Source: Trypanosoma brucei (lineage: Eukaryota). From it: DNA of 64,000 nt. Below are positions 25,751 through 64,000 of the stretch, in pieces. The notes beneath the pieces were generated by a model. It made no database searches. It was not told the origin of the DNA and worked only from the letters and a program-made list of their open reading frames with translations. Numbering within the stretch: position 1 is the first letter of the stretch; each line of letters opens with the position of its first letter. A program made the position numbers and the translations under genes. The DNA lies in the NCBI GenBank assembly GCA_000002445.1, contig CH464491.1, positions 224,001 to 288,000 on the forward strand, given 5' to 3'.

Positions 25751-28700
25751 ATGAGCGCAGGATTCGGAGGTGGTTTTGGCCAACCGGCAGCAACGGGATT
25801 TGGTCAGCAGCCTACCGGTGGTTTTGGGCAAGCACCGCAGGGTGGGGCGTTTGGCCAGGTTGCTCCAGCGGCTACTGGTTTTGGTCAGCCCTCTCAGAGT
25901 GCTGTCACCGGAGGTTTCGGGCAGACAAATACTGGTGGTTTCGGACAACCTGCAGCAACTGGTTTCGGTCAACCTGCTCAGGGTGCTGTCACCGGAGGTT
26001 TCGGGCAGACAAATACTGGTGGTTTCGGACAACCTGCAGCAACTGGTTTCGGTCAACCTGCTCAGAGTGCTGTCACCGGAGGTTTCGGGCAGACAAATAC
26101 TGGTGGTTTCGGTCAGCCTGCTCAGGGTGGGTTTGGCCAGACAGCGGCAGCGGCTAACGCCTTTGGACAGGCGGGCCCCTCAGGTGGCTTCGGGCAGACA
26201 AATACTGGTGGATTCGGCCAGCAGTCCAACAGTGGGTTTGGTCAAGCTGGTCGGGGCGCGACAGCCGGATTTGGGCAGCCCGGAACTGGTTTTGGTCAAC
26301 CAGCTACCGGAGGATTCGGTCAAGCAACTTCTGCCTCTCCATTTGGACAAGCAGCGGCAGGCCGCGGTGTTGGTGGTGGTTTTGGTACTGCGGCTGGCAC
26401 AGTTGGTGGTTTTGGGCAGCCTGCTGCGACGGGTGGTTTCGGTCAAACGGCAACTACAGGTGGATTCGGGCAGCCTGCTCAGGGAGCTGCAGCTGGTGGT
26501 TTTGGTCAACCAGCTACCGGAGGATTCGGTCAAGCAACTTCTGCCTCTCCATTTGGACAAGCAGCGGCAGGCCGCGGTGTTGGTGGTGGTTTTGGTACTG
26601 CGGCTGGTACAGTTGGTGGTTTTGGGCAGCCTGCTGCGCCGGGTGGTTTCGGTCAAACGGCAACTGCAGGTGGATTCGGGCAGCCCGCTCGGGGAGCTGC
26701 AGCTGGTGGTTTTGGTCAACCAGCTACCGGAGGATTCGGTCAGGCAACTTCTGCCTCTCCATTTGGACAAGCAGCGGCAGGCCGCGGTGTTGGTGGTGGT
26801 TTTGGTACTGCGGCTGGCACAGTTGGTGGTTTTGGGCAGCCTGCTGCGACGGGCGGTTTCGGTCAAACGGCAACTACAGGTGGATTCGGCCAGCCTGCTC
26901 AGGGAGCAAATACTTTCGGACAGGGGACTCCTTCGGCTGGTGGTTTTGGGCAGGCCGGTCGAGGCGTGACTGGAGGCTTCGGTCAAACTGGCGTGACCGG
27001 TGGTTTCGGGCAAACGGCAACTACAGGCGGATTTGGCCAACCTGCTCAGGGGGCTGCAACCGGTGGTTTTGGTCAAGCTGGTCGGGGCGCAGCGGACGGA
27101 TTTGGTCGACCTGCTCAGGGAGCTGCAGCTGGTGGTTTTGGTCAACCAGCTACCGGAGGATTCGGTCAAGCAACTTCTGCCTCTCCATTTGGACAAGCAG
27201 CGGCAGGCCGCGGTGTTGGTGGTGGTTTTGGTACTGCGGCTGGCACAGTTGGCGGTTTTGGGCAGCCTGCTGCGCCGGGTGGTTTCGGTCAAACGGCAAC
27301 TACAGGTGGATTCGGCCAGCCCGGTCGGGGAGCTGCAGCTGGTGGTTTTGGTCAACCAGCTACCGGAGGTCTAGGGCTCGCGGGCGGAAGTGGTTTTGGC
27401 GCTGCTGCCGGCGCTGGTGGGTTTGGGCAGCAAAGCACTGCTTCCCCGTGGGGTGGTGGTGCCACCCCTGCGGCACCTGTCGATGTGTCTCTCCTGAACC
27501 TTCCGGAGTTTGCCGACAAGCCTTATGGCAACGTTTTACTCTTTGCGCCTGAGAAGCCACCAAAAAAACCAATTTCAGTTGGTCATACACCATCTCCAGC
27601 TGCCCCCTTCAACCCCATCTCGGTACCACGTTACCAACAAAGGATACCGGTGGGTATCCCAGCACCCACAGTGTCCGCTAACGTGAAGCTTCAACCTACG
27701 CCTTTTTCAACCTCAGCCTTATCCTCAGTGGAGCTTCGTGAATTGTTGAACGCTTCAAAAGTTAACTTGGGGGTATCCGATGATGTCCAAAAAATCGACT
27801 CACCGAAGGTCTCGCGGGTGGTGGCAGCTGGTGAGAAGCCGCCTTCACATGATGCGGCGGTCTTTGCGCCTGTGTGCTCAAAAGAGGAGTATATACTGGA
27901 TCCACCTCTAGCCACACTACAGGGGCTTGCGGTTCGACAGTTGCAGGAGGTTTATGGTTTTAGTGTTTACCGCCGGGATGGTAAGTGCTCCGTTCACTTT
28001 CTTGAGCCTGTGAACCTTGTTCGATGTGATATCGCTGAGATCGTTGAGCTTCGTCCTAGTGGTGAAGTTAAGCTTTATCCATGTGTGCAAAACCCTCCCT
28101 CCATCGGCCAAGGTCTCAATGTGAAAGCTCGTGTAACCGTGAACGGTGTTATTGGGACGACAAGCAACGACCTTCTTATCCGCTGCCAGAAAGAAGGTAA
28201 CAGATTTGAGTCTTACGATGTGAACACGGGGACGTGGGTTTACGTGATGAATGTTGGCGACGATGGTCAAAATGAATATGACGATGCTGACCGCGAAGTT
28301 GACATAGTCGAGACTGATACGCAGGTCCAAGATGGTGAGCAGTTTCCTGTTGCCAATGATATTGCTGACGGCGGGGTGCGTGCTATTTCCCAGCTGGACA
28401 CATGTGCCCAATTGAAAAGGTCTGATCCACCGTCACCACCATTTCTACAACAGCAGCAGCAGGTGCCCGTATTGCACCAAAATGAAGCGGTTTCAGCATT
28501 GTCGTTTTCACGGTATGCCCCATTTGACGATCAGTCTCTTATTCTTCCGCAACGCACGCAGAGGGTGTCTGTGCTGCGACAAGCTGTGCACCGCCCTGCT
28601 GCGGATACAACCTCGGGGATCTCCGACTTCGAACTGCCGTACACGCTTCCCAGCCCCAAGAAAACCCCTCTCTGTGAGCGGAAGGGCCCGTTGGTCGTGA

Positions 28701-30412
28701 AGGAACCCTACGCGAAGGCACACGGGCCTGTTTACGTTGTGAAGAGGGAGGACAGTAAGATGTACGAAATGAATGCAAGCGTGGTTTCGCGGGGCGCAAT
28801 GGCAAGTCTGAGTCGGAGTTTCCGATGTGGGTGGTGCACCGGAGGGCGTCTGGTTGCCCCAATGTTCGCCTGGGTTCGTGACGGGACAGAGAGTAGGCAT
28901 TCTGTGGATGAAGTTCTCGGCTCGCGAGTGGTTATGTCAACTGTTTACTTTGCCCATGCAACAAGTAAGCACTACTTGCAGAGTTGCGCCATATCAGTAC
29001 TGCGCGCGCTGTGTCGGCACGCGCACAGGGTGGATGCCTCTTCGGACAAGGAAGGCTTTTTCCCGCTTCTGGAGCTAGGATTGTGCCGAGACACCGGCTC
29101 CACCTCCCTTTCGACCGAAAAGTTACGTGAGGTTATCGCTGCTGTCGATGCCGTTCGTTTCGACGGAGCTTCTGCAGTGGGGGAGTCCACGGCACGGCAA
29201 GCCAAAACAATTCTTTCTCTACTCGATGCCCTTTATGGATTGCCTGATGCCGACGAGGCAGACAAAAATGCCATTACTGAGAGGCGTTACCTCACTCAAC
29301 TGCGGAGGCGGAACCTGAATTCGTGGTTGAAGACGGAGCTGGAATATATGGATTTGTGGACCGACCTGGACGTGGATGCGAACCCATCGCAAAAGTTACT
29401 TCGGAAGTTGCTGTGCGGCAAGCTACGGGAGGCCTCGTCTGTGGCGAAGGCATTGGGGAGCACAGAACTTTCACGCGTTGTAGGAATATGTGGAGAGGGG
29501 AACCATTTTGGGAGCTACGTGCAGACGTCCGACAATAGTTGCATAGACGAAGCACTTGGCATCCGGGAGCGTGTGGTGAGCCTCCTCTCTGGTATTGTTG
29601 AGCCTTTTGTCTCTCAGCCCCAGTACGCGTGGGCTGAGGACGAAAAGGGTGGCCGCACCGTTGCGAAGGTGCCATTGGCAGCAACATGGAAGCAGTTGCT
29701 GGGAGTATTTGCCTTCTACGGCTGCACACCTGACAGCTCCGCGGAGGAGACAATTGACTGTTTTCTCAAACGGCTTCGAGCACCAACCTCACGTCGTGAG
29801 AATTCCTTTCCTCCATACGCTGAACGTATCTCAGCTGACAAACTAGGAACAGGTCGCGGTCGGAGTTTCGTTTCCCTCGGGGAGTGGTTTCCTGATGCCG
29901 CGCTGAGCCTGTTGGAGGGTTTCGCGATGGGTGTGGCTCCCGCCGCCACTGCACTTCATCCACATTCATCAAGTTACTGTGCAACGGATTACTTGACACC
30001 ATTCATAATTATAGTAAGTGTCCGTGCTTTGAAGTTACAGCGCACAGACACCTATGACGACGCTGAAACAAAAGCACTTCTGGGGTTTGCCGCAGCGCTG
30101 GAGTGTCTTAGTGATGCGTGGTTCTGGGCTTTACTGCCGCTCCATATGATAGTTGACGACAAGTGCCGGGCTGTGGCTGTTGAGCAGTGTTTGCGCCGTA
30201 ACGCCCACCGGTTCCAGGGAGGGGCGTGCCGCACCAACACGGACTACGTACATTTGGCAGAGCTGTTGAAAATTAATGCTCGGCTGTTAGATGTGGAGAT
30301 GCTGTTAGAGAAAGTCCCGGCAGATGCACCTGTGAATGCGCCAAGCATTCGCACTCACTCGTCTCTGCAGGAAGCGCTTCACCGTTTCAGTCGGGGGTTT
30401 ACAAAGAGATGA
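25751..30412 (+). CDS. NUP158: FG-repeat nucleoporin of the Nup98-96 fusion type (TbNup158-like), 1553 aa. It has N-terminal GGFGQ repeats, a central Nup98-type autoproteolytic-domain fold, and a Nup96-like alpha-helical C-terminal region.
   Basis: The first 550 aa are almost entirely GGFGQ(P/T)A repeats. They are followed by ...GFSVYRRDGKCSVHFLEPVNLVRCDIAEIVEL...GQGLNVKARVTVNGV...NTGTWVYV, which aligns with the human Nup98 autoproteolytic domain (...GEGLNRKAEVTLDGV...ETGSWVFKVSHFSKY). After that comes a large helical domain. There is an ATG at 25751. Confidence 0.85.
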   Translation: MSAGFGGGFGQPAATGFGQQPTGGFGQAPQGGAFGQVAPAATGFGQPSQSAVTGGFGQTNTGGFGQPAATGFGQPAQGAVTGGFGQTNTGGFGQPAATGFGQPAQSAVTGGFGQTNTGGFGQPAQGGFGQTAAAANAFGQAGPSGGFGQTNTGGFGQQSNSGFGQAGRGATAGFGQPGTGFGQPATGGFGQATSASPFGQAAAGRGVGGGFGTAAGTVGGFGQPAATGGFGQTATTGGFGQPAQGAAAGGFGQPATGGFGQATSASPFGQAAAGRGVGGGFGTAAGTVGGFGQPAAPGGFGQTATAGGFGQPARGAAAGGFGQPATGGFGQATSASPFGQAAAGRGVGGGFGTAAGTVGGFGQPAATGGFGQTATTGGFGQPAQGANTFGQGTPSAGGFGQAGRGVTGGFGQTGVTGGFGQTATTGGFGQPAQGAATGGFGQAGRGAADGFGRPAQGAAAGGFGQPATGGFGQATSASPFGQAAAGRGVGGGFGTAAGTVGGFGQPAAPGGFGQTATTGGFGQPGRGAAAGGFGQPATGGLGLAGGSGFGAAAGAGGFGQQSTASPWGGGATPAAPVDVSLLNLPEFADKPYGNVLLFAPEKPPKKPISVGHTPSPAAPFNPISVPRYQQRIPVGIPAPTVSANVKLQPTPFSTSALSSVELRELLNASKVNLGVSDDVQKIDSPKVSRVVAAGEKPPSHDAAVFAPVCSKEEYILDPPLATLQGLAVRQLQEVYGFSVYRRDGKCSVHFLEPVNLVRCDIAEIVELRPSGEVKLYPCVQNPPSIGQGLNVKARVTVNGVIGTTSNDLLIRCQKEGNRFESYDVNTGTWVYVMNVGDDGQNEYDDADREVDIVETDTQVQDGEQFPVANDIADGGVRAISQLDTCAQLKRSDPPSPPFLQQQQQVPVLHQNEAVSALSFSRYAPFDDQSLILPQRTQRVSVLRQAVHRPAADTTSGISDFELPYTLPSPKKTPLCERKGPLVVKEPYAKAHGPVYVVKREDSKMYEMNASVVSRGAMASLSRSFRCGWCTGGRLVAPMFAWVRDGTESRHSVDEVLGSRVVMSTVYFAHATSKHYLQSCAISVLRALCRHAHRVDASSDKEGFFPLLELGLCRDTGSTSLSTEKLREVIAAVDAVRFDGASAVGESTARQAKTILSLLDALYGLPDADEADKNAITERRYLTQLRRRNLNSWLKTELEYMDLWTDLDVDANPSQKLLRKLLCGKLREASSVAKALGSTELSRVVGICGEGNHFGSYVQTSDNSCIDEALGIRERVVSLLSGIVEPFVSQPQYAWAEDEKGGRTVAKVPLAATWKQLLGVFAFYGCTPDSSAEETIDCFLKRLRAPTSRRENSFPPYAERISADKLGTGRGRSFVSLGEWFPDAALSLLEGFAMGVAPAATALHPHSSSYCATDYLTPFIIIVSVRALKLQRTDTYDDAETKALLGFAAALECLSDAWFWALLPLHMIVDDKCRAVAVEQCLRRNAHRFQGGACRTNTDYVHLAELLKINARLLDVEMLLEKVPADAPVNAPSIRTHSSLQEALHRFSRGFTKR
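25911..26110 (+). repeat. An 84-bp (28-codon) FG repeat, about 3 copies, within the nucleoporin gene.
   Basis: gaggtttcgggcagacaaatactggtggtttcgg recurs at 25911, 25995 and 26079. The encoded unit is GGFGQTNTGGFGQPAATGFGQPAQ(G/S)AVT. Confidence 0.9.
26291..27370 (+). repeat. A 210-bp (70-codon) higher-order FG repeat within the nucleoporin gene. There are four near-identical copies (starts 26291, 26501, 26711, 27137) plus a partial fifth (27347).
   Basis: The exact 50-nt string tttggtcaaccagctaccggaggattcggtcaagcaacttctgcctctcc recurs at those positions. The encoded unit is FGQPATGGFGQATSASPFGQAAAGRGVGGGFGTAAGTVGGFGQPAATGGFGQTATTGGFGQPAQGAAAGG. Confidence 0.9.

Positions 30413-41505: not shown

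Positions 41506-41534
<29 letters not shown>
41506..41534 (+). repeat. (CA)n microsatellite, about 14 units.
   Basis: There is a direct run of acacac... in the intergenic region. Confidence 0.9.

Positions 41535-46876: not shown

Positions 46877-46904
<28 letters not shown>
46877..46904 (+). repeat. (TA)n microsatellite, about 14 units, downstream of the Brix gene.
   Basis: ctgctatatatatatatatatatatatatatacattt. Confidence 0.9.
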
Positions 46905-54879: not shown

Positions 54880-54925
54880 CCCTTTCTTTTGGGAATTTTT
54901 TAATAAACATTTTTTTTTTACAAGT
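54880..54925 (+). promoter_or_regulatory. Polypyrimidine tract plus AG upstream of the ClpGM6-like ORF.
   Basis: ccctttcttttgggaattttttaataaacatttttttttttacaag is followed by an A-rich 5' leader of about 270 nt and the ATG at 55198. Confidence 0.45.
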
Positions 54926-55197
54926 TCTAACTGCATCGTTACGCTGTGACCCAACAATCATCATCGGAAGGCGGATAAGTCGTACACTGCGTAGTGTGCA
55001 AAAACAAAACGAGAAAGAAGTAAAGTCATTCAAAAATAGTTTAAAAAATTTGCATTATCTCATAGCCAGTCTCAATTTCACAAAAAAGAAAGTAAAGAAA
55101 CAATTCAAGGGAATCAAAAAGAGAACGCAAGAAAATATAGAGACGATATTGACACGCAATACACTCGCAACGTCTTTGTGTGCGAGTCACCATAAAC

Positions 55198-58100
55198 ATG
55201 GCGTGTCAAGAGGTAAATAGTGAAGTTCCTGACAGCGATGTAGTTTTCCATGACACCATTTTTATGAGAAACAACAAACACGTCTCGGAGCAATGGATTC
55301 GTATTGGCGAATTGTACCCCAATGGTGCGAAGGAATCATTGCTCCCGGAGACGTTTGCACGCGAACAGTTCGGACAAGGAAGTCACTATGAGTGCTTCAT
55401 GCTTTCTGCCCTCGCCACTTTAGTAAAATTCCCCGACATCATTCGGAACTGCTTCGTGTCGAGGAATGTGCGGCGTGACGGGAGGTACACTTTTCAGTTC
55501 TTTCGTGACAAGGAATGGGTGAAGGTTGAAATTGATGACTCTGTTATGCTTGAGGATGATGAAGTTTTGTTCATCCGATCACCCACTAGTCATTGGTGGC
55601 CGCTACTGTTTGAGAAGGCTTATGCGAAATTCTACACCAGCTACGACAATTTGGAGGGTTGTACCTTACAGGAGGCGTACCATGACTTAACTGGCAACCC
55701 CGTGCTCAACATCCCCATGGACGCGAGGCTTGCCAAGGCTGCAGGTGTGGATGTGACTGGAGGTCAGTATTGGCTTGACCTCGCACAGAAGCTGCAATCC
55801 GGCCAGTTTGTTGGTTCGCTGCTGACGAGGGAAACGGACCTTGAGTCGATGGGTTTGCAGAGTGAGCAACAATACGGGATACTAGAGATTTTTTCGCTAA
55901 CTGGGACATCATCTGTAAGCGACATTGTGATTCACCTATACAACCCATTCGAGGACGAGGAATTCACGTACAAAGGCCCGCTGAACAGTAAGGACACGGA
56001 GTGGACCCCCAAACTCCGTGAAAAGTATAACGTGGATGATACGCACTCCATATTTCTTCCGCTACACGTTGCCCTGAAGATCGTAAATTCGGTGCAACTT
56101 TGCTACATATCCCCTATTGATGGTGACGCGACGTATTTTGATGATGAGTGGAAGGGTGAAACTGCGGGAGGGAACCCCACGAGTGTAACATGGCGCAAGA
56201 ACCCCCTATACTGCGTCAGGAACGCTGGGATCAACCCCGTGGAACTGGTTGTCGTGATTAAGCAGAAGGATCAACGTCATCTTTGGACATCAGAAGATGA
56301 TGAACTGATGTACAAAAGGTGTGGCATTGTTGTTGTTCAGAGTACCACAGTCACACAAATACCGACATATTTTGTAACAGGGAACAATCACAAAGCAATA
56401 CACAAGAGTTTGTTCCTAAACTCTCGTGAAGTGTCCAGTTTCGTTCGGATACCACCTAATTCCTTGTGCTACCTTGTACCTTCTTGCATGAAGAAGGGAG
56501 CGGAGAGTGCATTTACGCTCGCACTGTACCGGATGAAGCACCAAAATTATACGGAGTTCAATGTTAGTCGACTTGCTCTGCCGAAATTGCTGTGGCACAA
56601 TCCTATCCAAGAGAAACTCCAACTTCAAATGTTCACAAAGGATAGAAGGGATTTTTACGTCGATATACCCACTGACATTCACATTTTGATGCATCAAGAA
56701 AAACCGTTTGTAAGTGAGAAGACCGGTGGTGATGCTATGGTTCAGGATTACGTTGGTGTCTACCTTTATGATGACACGGACCGTAAGATTGGAGGTGTGC
56801 ACGCTGCGACGAATTTCAGGGAAACAAGTGTCTTGCATCGCCTTCCTCGTAGTGGTCGTTATGCTATTTCAATTACGTGTCCCCGGGCAAGTGGTGAAGT
56901 ACCCATTGCTCTCACAATTGTTGGTTCTCCTGATGCTAATGTTCGTATTGTTGAGGCTCCTGATGATGCCTCCATGTTTGATGATGAGGATGATATTGCA
57001 GAGGGTGATGAGGATGCTACTGTTTCTAATCCCATTGACTACATTCCTGTTGCTGGTGGAGGGCAGGTGTTCACTGAGGTACCCGATAGTACGGTCCCAT
57101 TTGAAGATAAACGTTTCATGGTTGATAATAAGATTATGACGAATGAACCGTGGATCCACATTGGTGACCTTTATCCTGAGGGAAAGACGCGCTCACTTTT
57201 GCCGGAGCGTCTGAGTCGTGAGCAGTTTGAGCAGGGTGAACACTTCGAGTGCTGTTGTCTGACCGCTTTTGCAGCGCTGGTGGAGCACCACCCCAACGTA
57301 ATTCGTGACGCGTTTGTGACGAAGGCTGTACGACGTGACGGACGGTACACGTTCCGGTTCCACCGCTACGGTCAGTGGGTGAAGGTGGAGATTGATGATC
57401 GTATTCCCCTTCTTGGTGGGAAAACTTTATTCTGTCGATCATCTGATGGTTATTGGTGGCCACTACTACTAGAGAAGGCGTATGCTAAGTTCTACACACT
57501 ATACCAAAATATTGAGGGATGTACGCTGCGGGAACTGTTTTACGACCTAACAGGGCTTCCTGTGCTTAGCATTCCGATGGAGTTGAAACTCGCGAAGGCT
57601 GTACTGTGTGATGTTGATGATGTGAGTTTTTGGGTTGAGCTCAGTGAGGGTCTGAAGGATTGTGCGTGTGCTGCCGTTGCACGCCCCGGTTTCGATGACA
57701 CCCTTGGTTTGTCCAATGGGCAAGAGTACGCTGTCCTTGATGTGGTATCGTTAACGGATGGTGAGGCCTCTTCCATATCTGATCTTGTTGTAAAACTTCA
57801 TAATCCGTTTCTGGAGACTGAGTACAAAGGCCCTATGAATGCAAGCGATGCTGCGTGGTCGTCTGAGCTGCGTACCCGTCTATGTCCGGAGCGACGGGAT
57901 ACTATCTACATTCCCGTGGAAGTTTTCTGCAATGCATTTCTCACTGTGGAGAAAGTTATGGTGCGTGGTCTTATTGTTCCCGGGTGGCAATTCAACAGTG
58001 AATGGGGTGAGGGCACGAACGGTGGCAATCCAACACTTGTGACGTGGCGTGAGAACCCCATTTACGTTGTGCAGAACACTGCGGATACCCCGTTACAGAT

Positions 58101-61100
58101 TATTGCAATGATTGGGCAACCTGATCAGCGTCGCGTGCTACACCTTCTCCCCGAGCAAGAGGTAAACTACGTTCAATGTGGGTTGTCGCTTGCCAAGAGT
58201 ATTAAGGGTGAATCGATCCCGACATACTTGCTGACACCCAATAGTCATGTTTTGATTCATAAGGGCCGTTTCTTTTCTTACCGTGAAGTAGCTGATGTTA
58301 TTGTTGTTCCGGGGAATAGCCTCACTTTTCTCGTTCCAAGCGCGATGTTTCGTGACAAAACGAAGTTTCTTCTCTCGTACTGGTACTCTAGTGCGAACGA
58401 CAGGAACAGTGTTACAATTGAGCGTCTTAATTTGGGTGTTGCGCGGCATCTTCCAGCCATTGCCCATCTCACTGTCAAAGAGAGGGTGAGGGAGCAAGTG
58501 GATTTTATTGTCGATGTTCCCACTGACGTTCATATCCTTCTTCGTCAAGAAAAACCCTGCCACGGTGACAGTGTTTCAAATGCCTTGACAGATGATTTTC
58601 TTGCCATGTATTTGTATAATTCTGAAGATGATCAACTCAGTGGTGTTGTGACCGCGACCAACTACAGGGAGATGGGAATAGTTCATCACCTCTCCGAAGG
58701 GGGGAGATATGTAATTTACGTTGTTTGCCCTCGTGCTGAGGGTGAGGTTCCTTTGAGAATAGAAATTGTCGCTATGCAGTCGGCCCAGGTTCGCACAGTG
58801 GAAGCATTACCCTTGTGCAAATCAATCTTGCAGGTGGAAAAAGAGCTAAAGCTGAGTACTGGGTCCTTGCCATACTCACCACTCCTTATAAGCGAAGGGG
58901 ATCTCAAAAATTTCTCGGGGCGACTATCGGACAACTCTATGCGGTTGGAGAGTTCCAGTGACCCTGACTTATCTTTCCTTGGAGCCGAGGTGGAAGGAAT
59001 TCCCACCCTGGATCTCACTCTGATGAGCGACTCTTCATTTTCTGAGATGGCACGTGAGCGCATGCAATTAAAGCGGGATCCCATTGCTAATGCGAGTCGT
59101 TTGGCTGAGGTTGAAGATAGTATGGTGGCACGTGCGAATGCTATTGCCAAGGAAATGCATTTGAGAGAGCGGCGATATCTGAACCCTGAGCCTGAGGGTG
59201 TCCCCCTTGAGTTGCTTCCTTTAAACGAGGACGAAGTTGTGAGTGAGAAGGAGGACCGCCTCCGTGCGCTGAATCGTAAGGAGCAGAAGGACGAGAAACT
59301 GTTACGGAGTCTTGAGGACGTGATAGCGGACCGTGTACACGAGATCGCGAGGGAGCTGAAGGTGAGTGAACGTGATCTGTTCCTTGATCCCACTCCAGGA
59401 GGTTTCCCTGTAGCGCAGCTTCCGCTGGACGAAGACGATGTGTTTCATTCACTCGAAGTGGAGCGACTGCAACTGCGACTGCGTCAGGATTCCCTTGCTA
59501 GCAAAGAAAGAATTGCTGAACTGGAAAACATGATGAATTGTAGGACTACGGAGCTCATCGACAAAATGAAAGAAGAGATTAGGAAGTTTCTTGACCCCAC
59601 CCCACTAGGAATACCACTTGAAGAACTAAAACTGGACGAACACGACAATTATGTTGCAAAAGAGATAAGCCTAATTGGAATGATAAGAAAAGGGAAAAAA
59701 GAATCACAGGAAGCAATTTCAATTCGGGAACAGTTACTTCAAATAGAATACGCTGTTGCCAAGGAACACTTAAACAACTTTAGGATACAGTACCTCGGAG
59801 ACGACATTGAGGGTCGCCAACCGAACGAATTAAACTTAGAAGAAGAAGAAACTTATATGCAGATGGAGAGAAAATTGATTGAATACTACAACAGTAATCA
59901 ACGTAACAGCGAAGAAGCGCAGAAAATAAGAGTAAATCTACTTCACAAAGCTACAAAAGCATCAAAGCATTTAAATCGATCCGAGAGAAAAAACTACATT
60001 AAGAGAGACAGACTCGAGATTTCAATATCAAACATTCCGCTTGATGACAACGAACAGTTCACAACATTAGAAGCGGAACGAATAAGAAAAAAAAGAAATA
60101 AAAAAAATTCAGAGGTTGAACAAATAGAAATGGAACTCAACAATATAGCACAACAGCTAGCTAAACTGAAAGCATCCGATAGCCGCAGCTTCCTTGATCC
60201 TATGCCAGAAGGAGTGCCGTTGAGTGAGCTTGAATTGGACAAGGATGAGAAGTTCAGCACCATGGAAGAGGAGCGTCGTAAGCTTATTGCTGAGGATCGT
60301 GAAGATAATGCAACACGCATTGCTGAATTAGAAGCAGCAATGAACGAGTATTCACATGAGCTTGCTAAACTGAAAGCATCCGATAGCCGCAGCTTCCTTG
60401 ATCCTATGCCAGAAGGAGTGCCGTTGAGTGAGCTTGAATTGGATAAGGATGAGAAGTTCAGCACCATGGAAGAGGAGCGTCGTAAGCTTATTGCTGAGGA
60501 TCGTGAAGGTAATGCTGCGCGCATTGCTGAATTAGAAGCAGCAATGAACGAGCATTCACATGAGCTTGCTAAACTGAAAGCATCCGATAGCCGCAGCTTC
60601 CTTGATCCTATGCCAGAAGGAGTGCCGTTGAGTGAGCTTGAATTGGATAAGGATGAGAAGTTCAGCACCATGGAAGAGGAGCGTCGTAAGCTTATTGCTG
60701 AGGATCGTGAAGATAATGCAACACGCATTGCTGAATTAGAAGCAGCAATGAACGAGTATTCACATGAGCTTGCTAAACTGAAAGCATCCGATAGCCGCAG
60801 CTTCCTTGATCCTATGCCAGAAGGAGTGCCGTTGAGTGAGCTTGAATTGGATAAGGATGAGAAGTTCAGCACCATGGAAGAGGAGCGTCGTAAGCTTATT
60901 GCTGAGGATCGTGAAGGTAATGCTGCACGCATTGCTGAACTAGAAGCTGCAATGAACGAGCATTCACATGAGCTTGCTAAACTGAAAGCATCCGATAGCC
61001 GCAGCTTCCTTGATCCTATGCCAGAAGGAGTGCCGTTGAGTGAGCTAGGATTGGATAAGGATGAGAAGTTCAGCACCATGGAAGAGGAGCGTCGTAAGCT

Positions 61101-64000
61101 TATTGCTGAGGATCGTGAAGGTAATGCAACACGCATTGCTGAATTAGAAGCAGCAATGAACGAGCATTCACATAAGCTTGCTAAACTGAAAGCATCCGAT
61201 AGCCGCAGCTTCCTTGATCCTATGCCAGAAGGAGTGCCGTTGAGTGAGCTTGAATTGGATAAGGATGAGAAGTTCAGCACCATGGAAGAGGAGCGTCGTA
61301 AGCTTATTGCTGAGGATCGTGAAGGTAATGCTGCACGCATTGCTGAACTAGAAGCTGCAATGAACGAGCATTCACATGAGCTTGCTAAACTGAAAGCATC
61401 CGATAGCCGCAGCTTCCTTGATCCTATGCCAGAAGGAGTGCCACTAAGTGAGCTTGAATTGGATAAGGATGAGAAGTTCAGCACCATGGAAGAGGAGCGT
61501 CGTAAGCTTATTGCTGAGGATCGTGAAGGTAATGCTGCACGCATTGCTGAATTAGAAGCAGCAATGAACGAGCATTCACATGAGCTTGCTAAACTGAAAG
61601 CATCCGATAGCCGCAGCTTCCTTGATCCTATGCCAGAAGGAGTGCCGTTGAGTGAGCTTGAATTGGACAAGGATGAGAAGTTCAGCACCATGGAAGAGGA
61701 GCGTCGTAAGCTTATTGCTGAGGATCGTGAAGGTAATGCTGCACGCATTGCTGAATTAGAAGCAGCAATGAACGAGCATTCACATGAGCTTGCTAAACTG
61801 AAAGCATCCGATAGCCGCAGCTTCCTTGATCCTATGCCAGAAGGAGTGCCGTTGAGTGAGCTTGAATTGGATAAGGATGAGAAGTTCAGCACCATGGAAG
61901 AGGAGCGTCGTAAGCTTATTGCTGAGGATCGTGAAGGTAATGCTGCACGCGTTGCTGAACTAGAAGCTGCAATGAACGAGCATTCACATGAGCTTGCTAA
62001 ACTGAAAGCATCCGATAGCCGCAGCTTCCTTGATCCTATGCCAGAAGGAGTGCCGTTGAGTGAGCTAGGATTGGATAAGGATGAGAAGTTCAGCACCATG
62101 GAAGAGGAGCGTCGTAAGCTTATTGCTGAGGATCGTGAAGGTAATGCTGCACGCATTGCTGAACTAGAAGCAGCAATGAACGAGCATTCACATGAGCTTG
62201 CTAAACTGAAAGCATCCGATAGCCGCAGCTTCCTTGATCCTATGCCAGAAGGAGTGCCGTTGAGTGAGCTTGAATTGGATAAGGATGAGAAGTTCAGCAC
62301 CATGGAAGAGGAGCGTCGTAAGCTCATTGCTGAGGATCGTGAAGGTAATGCTGCACGCATTGCTAGACTTGAGGAGAGGATGAACGAACTTTCCCGTGAA
62401 CTCGCAAGAATGAAGTTGAAGGATCGCAGCTTCCTTGATCCTATGCCAGAAGGAGTGCCACTAAGTGAGCTTGAATTGGATAAGGATGAGAAGTTCAGCA
62501 CCATGGAAGAGGAGCGTCGTAAGCTCATTGCTGAGGATCGTGAAGGTAATGCAACACGCATTGCTGAATTAGAAGCAGCTATGAACGAGCATTCACATGA
62601 GCTTGCTAAACTGAAAGCATCCGATAGCCGCAGCTTCCTTGATCCTATGCCAGAAGGAGTGCCGTTGAGTGAGCTTGAATTGGATAAGGATGAGAAGTTC
62701 AGCACCATGGAAGAGGAGCGTCGTAAGCTCATTGCTGAGGATCGTGAAGGTAATGCAACACGCATTGCTGAATTAGAAGCAGCAATGAGCGAGCATTCAC
62801 ATGAGCTTGCTAAACTGAAAGCATCCGATAGCCGCAGCTTCCTTGATCCTATGCCAGAAGGAGTGCCACTAAGTGAGCTTGAATTGGATAAGGATGAGAA
62901 GTTCAGCACCATGGAAGAGGAGCGTCGTAAGCTTATTGCTGAGGATCGTGAAGGTAATGCTGCACGCATTGCTGAACTAGAAGCAGCTATGAACGAGCAT
63001 TCACATGAGCTTGCTAAACTGAAAGCATCCGATAGCCGCAGCTTCCTTGATCCTATGCCAGAAGGAGTGCCGCTAAGTGAGCTTGAATTGGATAAGGATG
63101 AGAAGTTCAGCACCATGGAAGAGGAGCGTCGTAAGCTTATTGCCGAGGATCGTGAAGGTAATGCTGCACGCATTGCTGAACTAGAAGCAGCGATGAACGA
63201 GCATTCACATGAGCTTGCTAAACTGAAAGCATCCGATAGCCGCAGCTTCCTTGATCCTATGCCAGAAGGAGTGCCGTTGAGTGAGCTTGAATTGGACAAG
63301 GATGAGAAGTTCAGCACCATGGAAGAGGAGCGTCGTAAGCTTATTGCTGAGGATCGTGAAGGTAATGCTGCACGCATTGCTGAACTAGAAGCAGCAATGA
63401 ACGAGCATTCACATGAGCTTGCTAAACTGAAAGCATCCGATAGCCGCAGCTTCCTTGATCCTATGCCAGAAGGAGTGCCGTTGAGTGAGCTTGAATTGGA
63501 TAAGGATGAGAAGTTCAGCACCATGGAAGAGGAGCGTCGTAAGCTTATTGCTGAGGATCGTGAAGGTAATGCTGCACGCATTGCTGAACTAGAAGCAGCA
63601 ATGAACGAGCATTCACATGAGCTTGCTAAACTGAAAGCATCCGATAGCCGCAGCTTCCTTGATCCTATGCCAGAAGGAGTGCCGTTGAGTGAGCTAGGAT
63701 TGGATAAGGATGAGAAGTTCAGCACCATGGAAGAGGAGCGTCGTAAGCTTATTGCTGAGGATCGTGAAGGTAATGCAGCACGCATTGCTGAACTAGAAGC
63801 AGCAATGAACGAGCATTCACATGAGCTTGCTAAACTGAAAGCATCCGATAGCCGCAGCTTCCTTGATCCTATGCCAGAAGGAGTGCCGTTGAGTGAGCTT
63901 GAATTGGATAAGGATGAGAAGTTCAGCACCATGGAAGAGGAGCGTCGTAAGCTTATTGCTGAGGATCGTGAAGGTAATGCTGCACGCATTGCTGAATTAG
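55198..64000 (+). CDS. ClpGM6: Giant calpain-like protein with two tandem calpain-type cysteine-protease-like domains followed by a 68-aa (204-bp) tandem repeat array (ClpGM6 / GM6-antigen type). It is 5'-partial only in the sense that the ORF runs off the window end. More than 2,930 codons are open.
   Basis: It is not in the supplied ORF track (no stop in the window). There is an ATG at 55198 after an A-rich leader and polyY tract (54880-54925). I translated frame 1 from 55198 by hand and found no stop to 64000. The two homologous about 640-aa units begin ...WIRIGELYPNGAKESLLPE...QGSHYECFMLSAL...RDGRYTFQFF...WWPLLFEKAYAKFYTSY... and ...WIHIGDLYPEGKTRSLLPE...QGEHFECCCLTAF...RDGRYTFRFH...WWPLLLEKAYAKFYTLY.... 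These are the calpain domain II landmarks (QGxxGDCW -> QGxHxECx; WVxLLEKAYAK). Then come about 19 near-identical 68-aa repeats (...ELAKLKASDSRSFLDPMPEGVPLSELELDKDEKFSTMEEERRKLIAEDREGNAARIAELEAAMNEHSH...). Confidence 0.85.
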   Translation, partial: MACQEVNSEVPDSDVVFHDTIFMRNNKHVSEQWIRIGELYPNGAKESLLPETFAREQFGQGSHYECFMLSALATLVKFPDIIRNCFVSRNVRRDGRYTFQFFRDKEWVKVEIDDSVMLEDDEVLFIRSPTSHWWPLLFEKAYAKFYTSYDNLEGCTLQEAYHDLTGNPVLNIPMDARLAKAAGVDVTGGQYWLDLAQKLQSGQFVGSLLTRETDLESMGLQSEQQYGILEIFSLTGTSSVSDIVIHLYNPFEDEEFTYKGPLNSKDTEWTPKLREKYNVDDTHSIFLPLHVALKIVNSVQLCYISPIDGDATYFDDEWKGETAGGNPTSVTWRKNPLYCVRNAGINPVELVVVIKQKDQRHLWTSEDDELMYKRCGIVVVQSTTVTQIPTYFVTGNNHKAIHKSLFLNSREVSSFVRIPPNSLCYLVPSCMKKGAESAFTLALYRMKHQNYTEFNVSRLALPKLLWHNPIQEKLQLQMFTKDRRDFYVDIPTDIHILMHQEKPFVSEKTGGDAMVQDYVGVYLYDDTDRKIGGVHAATNFRETSVLHRLPRSGRYAISITCPRASGEVPIALTIVGSPDANVRIVEAPDDASMFDDEDDIAEGDEDATVSNPIDYIPVAGGGQVFTEVPDSTVPFEDKRFMVDNKIMTNEPWIHIGDLYPEGKTRSLLPERLSREQFEQGEHFECCCLTAFAALVEHHPNVIRDAFVTKAVRRDGRYTFRFHRYGQWVKVEIDDRIPLLGGKTLFCRSSDGYWWPLLLEKAYAKFYTLYQNIEGCTLRELFYDLTGLPVLSIPMELKLAKAVLCDVDDVSFWVELSEGLKDCACAAVARPGFDDTLGLSNGQEYAVLDVVSLTDGEASSISDLVVKLHNPFLETEYKGPMNASDAAWSSELRTRLCPERRDTIYIPVEVFCNAFLTVEKVMVRGLIVPGWQFNSEWGEGTNGGNPTLVTWRENPIYVVQNTADTPLQIIAMIGQPDQRRVLHLLPEQEVNYVQCGLSLAKSIKGESIPTYLLTPNSHVLIHKGRFFSYREVADVIVVPGNSLTFLVPSAMFRDKTKFLLSYWYSSANDRNSVTIERLNLGVARHLPAIAHLTVKERVREQVDFIVDVPTDVHILLRQEKPCHGDSVSNALTDDFLAMYLYNSEDDQLSGVVTATNYREMGIVHHLSEGGRYVIYVVCPRAEGEVPLRIEIVAMQSAQVRTVEALPLCKSILQVEKELKLSTGSLPYSPLLISEGDLKNFSGRLSDNSMRLESSSDPDLSFLGAEVEGIPTLDLTLMSDSSFSEMARERMQLKRDPIANASRLAEVEDSMVARANAIAKEMHLRERRYLNPEPEGVPLELLPLNEDEVVSEKEDRLRALNRKEQKDEKLLRSLEDVIADRVHEIARELKVSERDLFLDPTPGGFPVAQLPLDEDDVFHSLEVERLQLRLRQDSLASKERIAELENMMNCRTTELIDKMKEEIRKFLDPTPLGIPLEELKLDEHDNYVAKEISLIGMIRKGKKESQEAISIREQLLQIEYAVAKEHLNNFRIQYLGDDIEGRQPNELNLEEEETYMQMERKLIEYYNSNQRNSEEAQKIRVNLLHKATKASKHLNRSERKNYIKRDRLEISISNIPLDDNEQFTTLEAERIRKKRNKKNSEVEQIEMELNNIAQQLAKLKASDSRSFLDPMPEGVPLSELELDKDEKFSTMEEERRKLIAEDREDNATRIAELEAAMNEYSHELAKLKASDSRSFLDPMPEGVPLSELELDKDEKFSTMEEERRKLIAEDREGNAARIAELEAAMNEHSHELAKLKASDSRSFLDPMPEGVPLSELELDKDEKFSTMEEERRKLIAEDREDNATRIAELEAAMNEYSHELAKLKASDSRSFLDPMPEGVPLSELELDKDEKFSTMEEERRKLIAEDREGNAARIAELEAAMNEHSHELAKLKASDSRSFLDPMPEGVPLSELGLDKDEKFSTMEEERRKLIAEDREGNATRIAELEAAMNEHSHKLAKLKASDSRSFLDPMPEGVPLSELELDKDEKFSTMEEERRKLIAEDREGNAARIAELEAAMNEHSHELAKLKASDSRSFLDPMPEGVPLSELELDKDEKFSTMEEERRKLIAEDREGNAARIAELEAAMNEHSHELAKLKASDSRSFLDPMPEGVPLSELELDKDEKFSTMEEERRKLIAEDREGNAARIAELEAAMNEHSHELAKLKASDSRSFLDPMPEGVPLSELELDKDEKFSTMEEERRKLIAEDREGNAARVAELEAAMNEHSHELAKLKASDSRSFLDPMPEGVPLSELGLDKDEKFSTMEEERRKLIAEDREGNAARIAELEAAMNEHSHELAKLKASDSRSFLDPMPEGVPLSELELDKDEKFSTMEEERRKLIAEDREGNAARIARLEERMNELSRELARMKLKDRSFLDPMPEGVPLSELELDKDEKFSTMEEERRKLIAEDREGNATRIAELEAAMNEHSHELAKLKASDSRSFLDPMPEGVPLSELELDKDEKFSTMEEERRKLIAEDREGNATRIAELEAAMSEHSHELAKLKASDSRSFLDPMPEGVPLSELELDKDEKFSTMEEERRKLIAEDREGNAARIAELEAAMNEHSHELAKLKASDSRSFLDPMPEGVPLSELELDKDEKFSTMEEERRKLIAEDREGNAARIAELEAAMNEHSHELAKLKASDSRSFLDPMPEGVPLSELELDKDEKFSTMEEERRKLIAEDREGNAARIAELEAAMNEHSHELAKLKASDSRSFLDPMPEGVPLSELELDKDEKFSTMEEERRKLIAEDREGNAARIAELEAAMNEHSHELAKLKASDSRSFLDPMPEGVPLSELGLDKDEKFSTMEEERRKLIAEDREGNAARIAELEAAMNEHSHELAKLKASDSRSFLDPMPEGVPLSELELDKDEKFSTMEEERRKLIAEDREGNAARIAEL
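60150..64000 (+). repeat. A 204-bp (68-codon) tandem repeat array, about 19 copies in the window and continuing past the window end. It is in-frame coding sequence of the ClpGM6-like gene.
   Basis: The string cttgctaaactgaaagcatccgatagccgcagc recurs at 60361, 60565, 60769 ... 63823 with an exact spacing of 204 bp. One unit (about 62341-62541) is 201 bp and diverged. There are a few recurrent SNVs between units. Confidence 0.95.

What the first reader, a model, noticed from the sequence alone, without database searches (positions are those of the whole stretch)
55198..64000. Largest gene in the window is invisible in the ORF track: a more than 8.8-kb open, tandem-calpain plus GM6-repeat ORF
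Frame 1 from the ATG at 55198 stays open to the last base of the window (more than 2,930 codons). Because it has no in-window stop, it is absent from the supplied track. The track instead shows a 1331-aa minus-strand ORF (59994..63989) that is merely the Ser-rich antisense reading of the repeat array. The real product has two homologous about 640-aa calpain-like modules and then at least 19 perfect 68-aa repeats. This is the architecture of the trypanosome cytoskeletal calpain-like protein ClpGM6 (the GM6 diagnostic antigen). The gene is certainly much longer than what is seen here.
Basis: partly seen in the sequence, partly recalled or inferred. Interest (0 to 1): 0.8.

Follow-up and report, generated by a model that had tools for sequence, protein, structure and literature searches.

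The report
Trypanosoma brucei ClpGM6 gene, N-terminal part
The open frame is real and is the 5' part of the already well-studied Trypanosoma brucei gene ClpGM6 (Tb927.11.1090), a giant inactive-calpain cytoskeletal protein with a 68-residue repeat array, missing from the ORF list only because it runs off the end of the window.

Summary
Frame 1 from the ATG at 55198 has no stop for 2,934 codons up to base 64000. It is absent from the ORF list only because it runs off the window.

Exact matches of neighbouring genes place the window on chromosome 11 of T. brucei brucei TREU927. The product has:
- two homologous calpain-like modules (43% identical);
- six degenerate 68-aa DUF7623 units;
- 18 full and one partial near-identical units.

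Both peptides used to raise the published anti-ClpGM6 antibody occur exactly in the repeat unit. The published RNAi fragment coordinates fit this ORF. The literature states that gene model Tb927.11.1090 is the N terminus of ClpGM6 and Tb927.11.1100 its C terminus.

- The repeats are near-identical, not perfect. Nine of 18 match the consensus, one is a divergent 67-aa unit, and nearly every DNA unit differs.
- Both modules keep the catalytic Cys and Asn positions but have Gln in place of His, so this is a pseudoprotease.

The 1,331-aa minus-strand ORF is an antisense by-product of the array.

This gene is already known, so interest is low. One side observation: in T. b. gambiense, a giant downstream paralogue shares the first 3 kb at 98% DNA identity.

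The parts
54880..54924 (+). Polypyrimidine tracts (54880-54890 and 54910-54919) followed by an AG at 54923, about 275 nt upstream of the ATG. Putative trans-splice acceptor region.
   Evidence: The sequence shows this directly. Its function is inferred from general knowledge of trypanosomatid trans-splicing signals and was not tested.
55198..64000 (+). Open reading frame of 2,934 codons with no stop in the window. It is the 5' part of ClpGM6 (gene model Tb927.11.1090, formerly Tb11.57.0008).
55258..56103 (+). Module 1 calpain protease-like core (Peptidase_C2, aa 21-302). Cys66 (55393-55395) and Asn249 (55942-55944) are kept. The His position is Gln224 (55867-55869).
   Evidence: Pfam E = 1.9e-36. 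PDB calpain alignments. Inter-module alignment. Coordinates.
56140..56529 (+). Module 1 calpain domain III (C2-like beta-sandwich), aa 315-444.
   Evidence: Pfam PF01067, 33.6 bits against a cut-off of 21. All-beta in the AF2 model.
56557..56967 (+). Module 1 second all-beta domain (aa about 454-590). No Pfam hit.
   Evidence: AF2 model with block pLDDT of about 50-90 and only beta strands. Foldseek hits include the calpain-7 distal C2-like domain, 2qfe, TMt 0.68, but which of the two beta domains it aligned to is not known.
57127..58806 (+). Module 2 (aa 644-1203), 43% identical to module 1. Peptidase_C2 lies at 57190-57951. Cys685 (57250-57252) and Asn869 (57802-57804) are kept. The His position is Gln842 (57721-57723).
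58975..60189 (+). Six degenerate 66-69-aa DUF7623 units (aa 1260-1664) that lead into the array.
   Evidence: Pfam DUF7623, 6 stretches, E = 6.2e-73. Unit boundaries.
60190..64000 (+). Homogenised GM6 array: 18 full units of 68 aa (204 bp) plus a partial unit of 47 aa, cut by the window end. TRF places the array at 60155-64000.
   Evidence: Pfam DUF7623 E = 6.2e-120 on six units. Antibody peptides matched exactly.
62230..62430 (+). Variant unit of 67 aa (201 bp) with the divergent tail ...ARLEERMNELSRELARMKLKDRS.
   Evidence: The C-terminal fragments also contain a unit with a divergent tail.
59994..63989 (-). 1,331-aa Ser-rich ORF on the opposite strand. It is an antisense by-product of the array, not a gene.
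   Evidence: 34% Ser and no Pfam hit above its cut-off. Repeat variants are less enriched for synonymous changes than in the sense frame. All 21 other long ORFs in the window lie on the + strand.

Best explanation
This is the N-terminal gene model (Tb927.11.1090, formerly Tb11.57.0008) of ClpGM6 of Trypanosoma brucei brucei TREU927, chromosome 11.

ClpGM6 is a giant cytoskeletal protein, reported as over 660 kDa. I estimate about 6,300-6,600 aa. [quoted passage not shown] These are followed by six degenerate and then at least 18.7 near-identical 68-aa DUF7623 ('GM6') units.

The modules are not proteases, because the catalytic His is Gln in both. I infer that they act as binding or anchoring domains. 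Each repeat is predicted, at low confidence, as a helix of about 56 residues plus a Pro-rich linker. I infer that the array forms a long, acidic, largely helical spacer or scaffold.

Published experiments were not tested here. They show that ClpGM6 and FLAM3 depend on each other for stability, and that depleting ClpGM6 shortens the FAZ and converts trypomastigotes to an epimastigote-like shape. The repeat is the GM6 serodiagnostic antigen.

The gene is missing from the ORF track because it has no stop in the window. The long minus-strand ORF arises because one antisense frame of the 204-bp unit happens to lack stops, and the array repeats that unit 18 times.
For: - **Open frame and start codon:**
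- **Domains:** Peptidase_C2 at 1.1e-70 in two stretches, Calpain_III and DUF7623. PDB calpains match at E = 1e-16 to 1e-18. The top Foldseek hits are calpains.
- **Triad status:** Cys and Asn kept, His replaced by Gln. This fits 'lacks the catalytic triad' in PMC4121973.
- **Identity of the gene:** both antibody peptides match exactly. The RNAi fragment nt 4302-4960, described as 'N-terminally of the repeats', ends where TRF starts the array, at nt 4958.
- **Identity of the organism:** neighbours are exact matches to TREU927 proteins EAN79083.1, EAN79086.1, EAN79087.1 and EAN79089.1. The ribokinase matches TREU927 only.
- **Synteny in T. b. gambiense:** 545-aa gene, N-terminal fragment, assembly gap, then C-terminal fragment.
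- **C-terminal fragment in TREU927:** EAN79091.1 starts mid-repeat and ends with a third calpain-like module and a stop.
- **Gene-model statement:** PMC9981465.
- **Function, size and antigen:** PMC4121973, PMC4827413, PMC4541047 and PMC3808341.
- **Coding strand:** 13 of 20 repeat variants are synonymous in the sense frame against 0.21 expected, P = 2e-5.
- **Repeat fold:**
Against: - Nothing contradicts the identification.
- The protein search returned no T. brucei protein identical to the N-terminal region. The best hits were 64-67% identical, from other species. The link to Tb927.11.1090 therefore rests on peptides, neighbours, synteny and literature, not on a direct accession match.
- Continuity between this ORF and the C-terminal fragment cannot be seen in the window.
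- The structural statements are weak. The repeat model has pLDDT 64 and comes from a single sequence. The protease core of module 1 has pLDDT below 50.
- The scaffold and anchor roles of the individual domains are inferred. The papers I read do not demonstrate them.
Confidence: 0.97

Rival explanations
1. The real gene is the 1,331-aa Ser-rich ORF on the minus strand (59994..63989), and the plus-strand frame is open only by accident.
For: It is the only ORF that the mechanical list reports over the array. Its frame has no stop across the array. Its repeat variants are mildly enriched for synonymous changes: 10 of 20 against 0.27 expected, P = 0.02.
Against: - It has no Pfam hit above a curated cut-off. 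The sense frame scores DUF7623 at 6.2e-120.
- The sense frame is continuous with 1,260 codons of calpain-like sequence.
- Antibodies raised to sense-frame peptides detect the protein.
- All 21 other long ORFs in the window are on the + strand, as expected for one polycistronic unit.
- In 5,000 shuffles of the unit, about 19% had at least one stop-free frame. A second open frame in a 204-bp unit is therefore unremarkable.
Confidence: 0.01
2. The ORF is not ClpGM6 but the neighbouring giant calpain/DUF7623 paralogue, which has an almost identical N-terminus.
For: In T. b. gambiense, a 6,131-aa gene about 2.5 kb downstream of the ClpGM6 stop shares window 55246-56531 and 56668-58185 at 98.1% and 98.7% DNA identity.
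Against: - The paralogue continues with diverged, non-identical repeats and lacks the homogenised GM6 array.
- The window ORF directly follows the 545-aa gene, as the ClpGM6 N-terminal fragment does in T. b. gambiense. The two are collinear at 99.2% identity over 7.8 kb.
- The window ORF carries the GM6 antibody peptides.
Confidence: 0.01
3. The modules are active calpain proteases, and the protein acts by proteolysis at the FAZ.
For: The nucleophile Cys (C66, C685) and the Asn (N249, N869) are conserved at the aligned positions. The Peptidase_C2 scores are strong.
Against: - The general-base His is Gln in both modules.
- By eye, the third module in the C-terminal fragment also lacks Cys and His (sequence, no formal alignment).
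- The literature regards the protein as catalytically inactive.
- No penta-EF-hand domain was detected.
Confidence: 0.03

Closest known systems
ClpGM6 of Trypanosoma brucei (Tb927.11.1090 + Tb927.11.1100; formerly Tb11.57.0008 + Tb11.47.0036; Hayes et al. 2014, PMC4121973)
   Same: It is the same gene. The strain and locus are established through exact neighbour matches. The 68-aa repeat contains both published antibody peptides. It has N-terminal calpain-like domains, lacks a complete catalytic triad, and has no stop codon before the sequence ends inside a repeat.
   Different: Nothing differs in kind. The window shows only the first 2,934 codons. I add that the Cys and Asn positions are retained and only His is replaced (by Gln) in both N-terminal modules. 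The paper says simply that the triad is lacking.
GM6 antigens of T. vivax, T. congolense and T. evansi (TvGM6, TcoGM6, TeGM6; Pillay et al. 2013, PMC3808341)
   Same: They are orthologous, flagellum-associated calpain-like proteins with a 68-aa repeat, used as invariant serodiagnostic antigens.
   Different: The repeat sequence is only 51-55% identical between TvGM6 and its T. b. brucei and T. congolense homologues. Reported copy numbers are far lower: 11 and 9 against about 60. The N-terminal region of the T. congolense protein is 66% identical to this one.
Downstream giant calpain/DUF7623 paralogue (6,131-aa gene call in T. b. gambiense DAL972, FN554974.1, L002 16250 onward)
   Same: It has two near-identical N-terminal calpain-like modules (98% DNA identity), part of the degenerate-repeat linker, and units of about 68 aa of the same Pfam family.
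   Different: Its repeats are diverged from one another and are not a homogenised array. It has a different first 15 residues and additional calpain domains interspersed.
Classical calpains (for example human m-calpain, PDB 1kfu) and calpain-7/PalB-type calpains
   Same: It has a papain-like protease core followed by a C2-like domain III. A second beta-sandwich follows the first, which resembles the tandem C2-like domains of calpain-7 (weak evidence).
   Different: The catalytic His is replaced. There is no penta-EF-hand domain. The module is duplicated in tandem and fused to a repeat array several thousand residues long.

Membership tests
ClpGM6 (T. brucei Tb927.11.1090/1100) | Array of near-identical 68-aa GM6 repeats carrying the published sequence | tested here: met
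   The period is 204 bp with 18.9 copies. The peptides KASDSRSFLDPMPE and ERRKLIAEDREGN from PMC4121973 occur 18 and 17 times.
ClpGM6 (T. brucei Tb927.11.1090/1100) | Calpain-like domains N-terminal to the repeats, in the same reading frame | tested here: met
   Two Peptidase_C2 stretches lie in one uninterrupted frame with the array.
ClpGM6 (T. brucei Tb927.11.1090/1100) | Located on T. brucei chromosome 11 in the expected gene order | tested here: met
   Four upstream ORFs are exact matches to TREU927 proteins on a 5.26-Mb record. The region is collinear with the T. b. gambiense locus at 99.2% over 7.8 kb. The gene-model statement is in PMC9981465.
ClpGM6 (T. brucei Tb927.11.1090/1100) | At least 55 repeats, a C-terminal calpain-like domain and a stop in the same gene | not testable with these tools
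   The window ends inside the array. The same strain's C-terminal fragment EAN79091.1 has the expected features. Physical continuity rests on the Southern blots of PMC4121973.
ClpGM6 (T. brucei Tb927.11.1090/1100) | [quoted passage not shown] | not testable with these tools
   Taken from the literature only.
Calpain family (peptidase C2) as an active protease | Peptidase_C2 catalytic-core fold | tested here: met
   Pfam gives 126 and 115 bits against a cut-off of 23.8. PDB calpains match at E down to 3e-18.
Calpain family (peptidase C2) as an active protease | Complete Cys-His-Asn catalytic triad | tested here: not met
   Cys66/685 and Asn249/869 are aligned to the catalytic residues. The His position is Gln842 in module 2. 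In module 1 it is Gln224 by the inter-module alignment, or Glu in HMMER's alternative alignment. Neither alignment puts a His there.
Calpain family (peptidase C2) as an active protease | C2-like domain III after the core | tested here: met
   PF01067 scores 33.6 bits against a cut-off of 21 in module 1. Module 2 has no separate Pfam hit but aligns to module 1 across this region.
Calpain family (peptidase C2) as an active protease | Penta-EF-hand calcium-binding domain (classical calpains only) | tested here: not met
   No EF-hand family appears in the Pfam scans at E up to 1.
Pfam DUF7623 repeat family | Match to PF24610 above the gathering score | tested here: met
   391.9 bits on six array units and 241 bits on the degenerate units, against a cut-off of 27.

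The most novel reading that the evidence does not exclude
The first 3 kb of ClpGM6, covering both pseudo-calpain modules, may be kept about 98% identical to the start of the next giant calpain/DUF7623 gene by ongoing gene conversion. If so, two giant proteins would share an interchangeable N-terminal 'head' on different repeat 'bodies'. Reagents directed at the ClpGM6 N-terminus, such as 5' tagging or N-terminal antibodies, could then also report on the paralogue. I saw this only in the T. b. gambiense assembly. It could be true of TREU927 as well, or it could partly reflect assembly problems in this repeat-rich region. The papers I read avoid the shared region in their RNAi design but do not discuss it.
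Probability: 0.4. Interest if true: 0.25.

Novelty: already known. Interest (0 to 1): 0.1.

Why it matters
For biology, this finding adds little. ClpGM6 was characterised in 2014, its repeat has been a diagnostic antigen since 1992, and the split gene model is documented.

Its value is methodological, in two ways:
- An ORF track that drops frames running off a window can hide the largest gene present.
- The same track can display a long antisense ORF generated by a tandem repeat.

There is also a small refinement. Only the His of the triad is lost in the two N-terminal modules, and both have the same Gln substitution there. That is consistent with the loss of activity predating the module duplication, though I did not test this.

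Tried and rejected
1. **Protein homology search with aa 1-1326.** It returned no T. brucei self-hit, only orthologues at 64-67% identity and the T. b. gambiense C-terminal fragment. It could not give a direct accession for this ORF.
2. **Exact look-ups.** The T. b. gambiense 1,870-aa product and the T. equiperdum 378-aa product were not in the collection.
3. **Extending the window in the 3' direction.** The look-up of encoding contigs on the upstream neighbour returned only a T. equiperdum contig broken by 10-N gaps, not the TREU927 chromosome. The stop and the repeat count in this assembly could not be read.
4. **AlphaFold2 of module 1 with a 9-sequence alignment.** The protease core came out at pLDDT below 50. 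The Foldseek TM-scores are therefore low, and only the ranking is informative, with calpains first.
5. **AlphaFold2 of three repeat units from a single sequence.** The model had pLDDT 64 and pTM 0.37. It supports 'long helix plus linker' but says nothing about how the helices pack.
6. **Minus-strand ORF as a gene.** Considered and rejected.
7. **Assignment to the downstream paralogue.** Considered and rejected.
Full report
**1. The observation**

Translating 55198-64000 on the + strand gives 2,934 codons and no stop. The nearest upstream in-frame stop is at 55150-55152. No ATG lies between it and 55198, so 55198 is the first possible start. Independent gene calls in T. equiperdum (L001 12021) and T. 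b. gambiense (L002 4067) begin at the same ATG with identical sequence.

The mechanical ORF list omits ORFs that run off the source. In this region it lists only two minus-strand ORFs, 58716..59393 and 59994..63989. The next largest ORF in the window is 1,553 aa, so this is the largest coding feature present.

Tandem Repeats Finder reports one array at 60155-64000, with a 204-bp period, 18.9 copies and 96% matches.

**2. Anatomy of the product**

- **Domains found by Pfam.** On aa 1-1651, Pfam finds Peptidase_C2 (E = 1.1e-70, two stretches), Calpain_III and DUF7623.
- **Module 1.** Scanned separately, it has Peptidase_C2 at aa 21-302 and Calpain_III at aa 315-444.
- **Module 2.** It has Peptidase_C2 at aa 665-918.
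- **Homology of the modules.** Residues 25-587 align with 644-1203 at 43% identity, E = 9e-163. The module period is about 620 aa.
- **Fold of module 1.** An AlphaFold2 model was poor for the protease core (pLDDT below 50). It gave moderate to good confidence for two consecutive all-beta domains, at aa 310-450 and 454-590. Foldseek against the PDB ranked calpain large subunits first and also found the distal C2-like domain of calpain-7.
- **Degenerate repeats.** After module 2 come six degenerate units of 66-69 aa (58975-60189), recognised by Pfam DUF7623 in 6 stretches at E = 6.2e-73.
- **Homogenised array.** From 60190 there are 18 full units and one 47-aa partial unit cut by the window end.

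Nine of the 18 units have the consensus protein sequence. The others differ at 1-3 residues. One unit (62230-62430) is 67 aa with a divergent tail. At the DNA level, 23 of the 24 units examined are distinct.

**3. Catalytic residues**

I compared both modules with human m-calpain (1kfu) and calpain-5 (6p3q).

- The nucleophile Cys aligns with C66 in module 1 and C685 in module 2.
- The Asn aligns with N249 and N869.
- The His aligns with Gln842 in module 2.
- In module 1 the His position is Gln224 by the inter-module alignment. HMMER's alternative alignment puts a Glu there. Neither alignment gives a His.

The residue numbers of the reference calpains come from my own knowledge of those proteins. 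The alignments themselves are tool output. The modules are therefore calpain-like pseudoproteases. This agrees with the literature statement that ClpGM6 lacks the catalytic triad.

**4. Which strand codes**

- The sense translation of the array hits DUF7623 at E = 6.2e-120. The antisense translation has no hit above any curated cut-off and is 34% Ser.
- Among 20 distinct nucleotide variants across the 17 full-length 204-bp units, 13 are synonymous in the sense frame. The expected fraction is 0.21, giving a binomial P of 2e-5.
- In the antisense ORF frame, 10 of 20 are synonymous against 0.27 expected, P = 0.02.
- All 21 long ATG ORFs outside the array are on the + strand. The only other minus-strand ORF of at least 180 aa lies inside a + strand gene. 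GC skew is positive almost throughout the window. This is the pattern of a single trypanosomatid polycistronic unit.
- In shuffles of the unit, about 19% have at least one stop-free frame. A second open frame in a 204-bp unit is therefore not remarkable, and tandem repetition then inflates it to 1,331 aa.

**5. Identity of the organism and gene**

- **Organism.** Four upstream ORFs are exact matches to T. brucei brucei TREU927 proteins: EAN79089.1, EAN79087.1, EAN79086.1 and EAN79083.1. The ribokinase sequence is exact only for TREU927, on a 5,261,801-bp record.
- **Peptides and RNAi coordinates.** Hayes et al. 2014 (PMC4121973) raised their anti-ClpGM6 antibody to KASDSRSFLDPMPE(C) and (C)ERRKLIAEDREGN. 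Both occur exactly in the unit here, 18 and 17 times. [quoted passage not shown] - **TREU927 C-terminal fragment.** The cluster of the T. b. gambiense C-terminal fragment contains the TREU927 protein EAN79091.1 / XP_828203.1, annotated 'calpain, putative, partial', 1,409 aa. It begins mid-repeat. It has about 7.5 canonical and about 4 degenerate units, a third Peptidase_C2 domain (E = 1.8e-20), a Pro-rich tail and an end.
- **Accession inference.** Its accession is two after the upstream neighbour. By inference, EAN79090.1 would be the product of the ORF in this window. I did not check this.

**6. Size of the whole gene**

Southern blots indicate at least 55 repeats. Pillay et al. 2013 give 60 copies for T. 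b. brucei. A review lists the protein as over 660 kDa.

I joined the 1,664 non-array residues seen here, 55-60 units, and the 895 non-array residues of EAN79091.1. That gives about 6,300-6,640 aa and 713-752 kDa (an estimate). The window therefore shows less than half of the gene.

**7. How it works**

Shown in the literature and not tested here:
- RNAi shortens the FAZ and converts procyclic trypomastigotes to a viable epimastigote-like form.
- FLAM3 and ClpGM6 depend on each other for stability. FLAM3 is needed for ClpGM6 localisation, and FLAM3 was found in ClpGM6 immunoprecipitates.

Inferred here:
- The three pseudo-calpain modules (two N-terminal, one C-terminal) act as binding heads.
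- The acidic repeat (pI 4.65) is predicted at low confidence as a helix of about 56 residues plus an 11-residue Pro-rich linker. It would form a long scaffold between the heads.
- The near-identity of the units points to concerted evolution of the array. A block of three units (61618-62229) recurs eight units later (63247-63858) with 1-2 differences per unit.

**8. The locus in relatives**

In T. b. gambiense DAL972 the gene is split by a 100-N gap followed by about 220 bp of poor-quality repeat sequence. In T. equiperdum it is broken by 10-N gaps. The repeat array defeats short-read assembly, as the literature says.

About 2.5 kb downstream of the ClpGM6 stop in T. b. gambiense lies a 6,131-aa gene. 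Its first 3 kb is 98.1-98.7% identical in DNA to window 55246-56531 and 56668-58185. It shares part of the degenerate-repeat linker and then continues with diverged 68-aa units. The RNAi hairpins of Hayes et al. start at nt 3069, just past the end of the shared block at nt 2988, and were described as unique in the genome.

**9. Verdict**

The feature is a known, well-characterised gene.

The only additions are small:
- The repeats are near-identical, not perfect.
- The triad is broken at His alone in both N-terminal modules.
- The N-terminal 3 kb is nearly identical to that of a downstream paralogue in a sister subspecies.

Interest is low.

Noticed in passing
L002 16250-23696 (T. b. gambiense FN554974.1), compared with window 55246-58185: A second giant calpain/DUF7623 gene (6,131-aa call) lies about 2.5 kb after the ClpGM6 stop. 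Its first 3 kb is 98.1-98.7% identical in DNA to both calpain modules of the window ORF. It then carries diverged, non-homogenised 68-aa repeats. This suggests recent duplication or gene conversion of the N-terminal 'head'.
   Followed up: partly
window 61618-62229 compared with 63247-63858; also 60190/60598 and 60802/61210: The array has internal higher-order structure. Three consecutive units recur eight units later with only 1-2 nt differences each. At the start of the array, alternate units are nearly identical or identical (1 and 0 differences). This points to block duplications within the array.
   Followed up: partly
window 62230-62430: A single 67-aa variant unit has a rewritten C-terminal third (ARLEERMNELSRELARMKLKDRS). 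The C-terminal fragments of TREU927 and T. b. gambiense also contain one unit with a different rewritten tail (…RLERKMGRRVDKLAKLKASYSRS).
   Followed up: no
window 25751-30412 (+), repeats at 25874-27369: A 1,553-aa Nup98-96-type nucleoporin (Nucleoporin2 autopeptidase plus Nup96) has an N-terminal GFGQ (FG) tandem-repeat region. The repeat region generates spurious overlapping ORFs at 25770..26969 (+) and 26180..27355 (-). This is the same kind of artefact as the antisense ORF over the GM6 array.
   Followed up: partly
window 1-64000: All 21 long ATG ORFs are on the + strand, and GC skew is positive in 30 of 32 2-kb bins. The whole window lies inside one directional (polycistronic) gene cluster. 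The genes include ATG9, an AAA ATPase, a TIP120/CAND1-like protein, a TPR protein, ribokinase, a Brix protein, vasohibin and a half-size ABC transporter of the ABC_membrane_2 type.
   Followed up: partly
L002 9679-10000 and L001 13143-16393: Public assemblies of sister taxa break at this gene. T. b. gambiense has a 100-N gap followed by about 220 bp of visibly error-rich repeat sequence. T. equiperdum has four 10-N gaps, and its gene call is only 378 aa.
   Followed up: yes
window 55198-59175 as protein query: The large protein search returned no T. brucei protein for the N-terminal 1,326 aa, although T. b. gambiense carries a 99%-identical 1,870-aa gene call. An exact look-up of that product also failed. 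The N-terminal fragment appears to be missing from the protein collection.
   Followed up: partly
window 41506-41534 and 46877-46904: Two perfect dinucleotide microsatellites lie in intergenic regions: (AC)14.5 and (TA)14.
   Followed up: no
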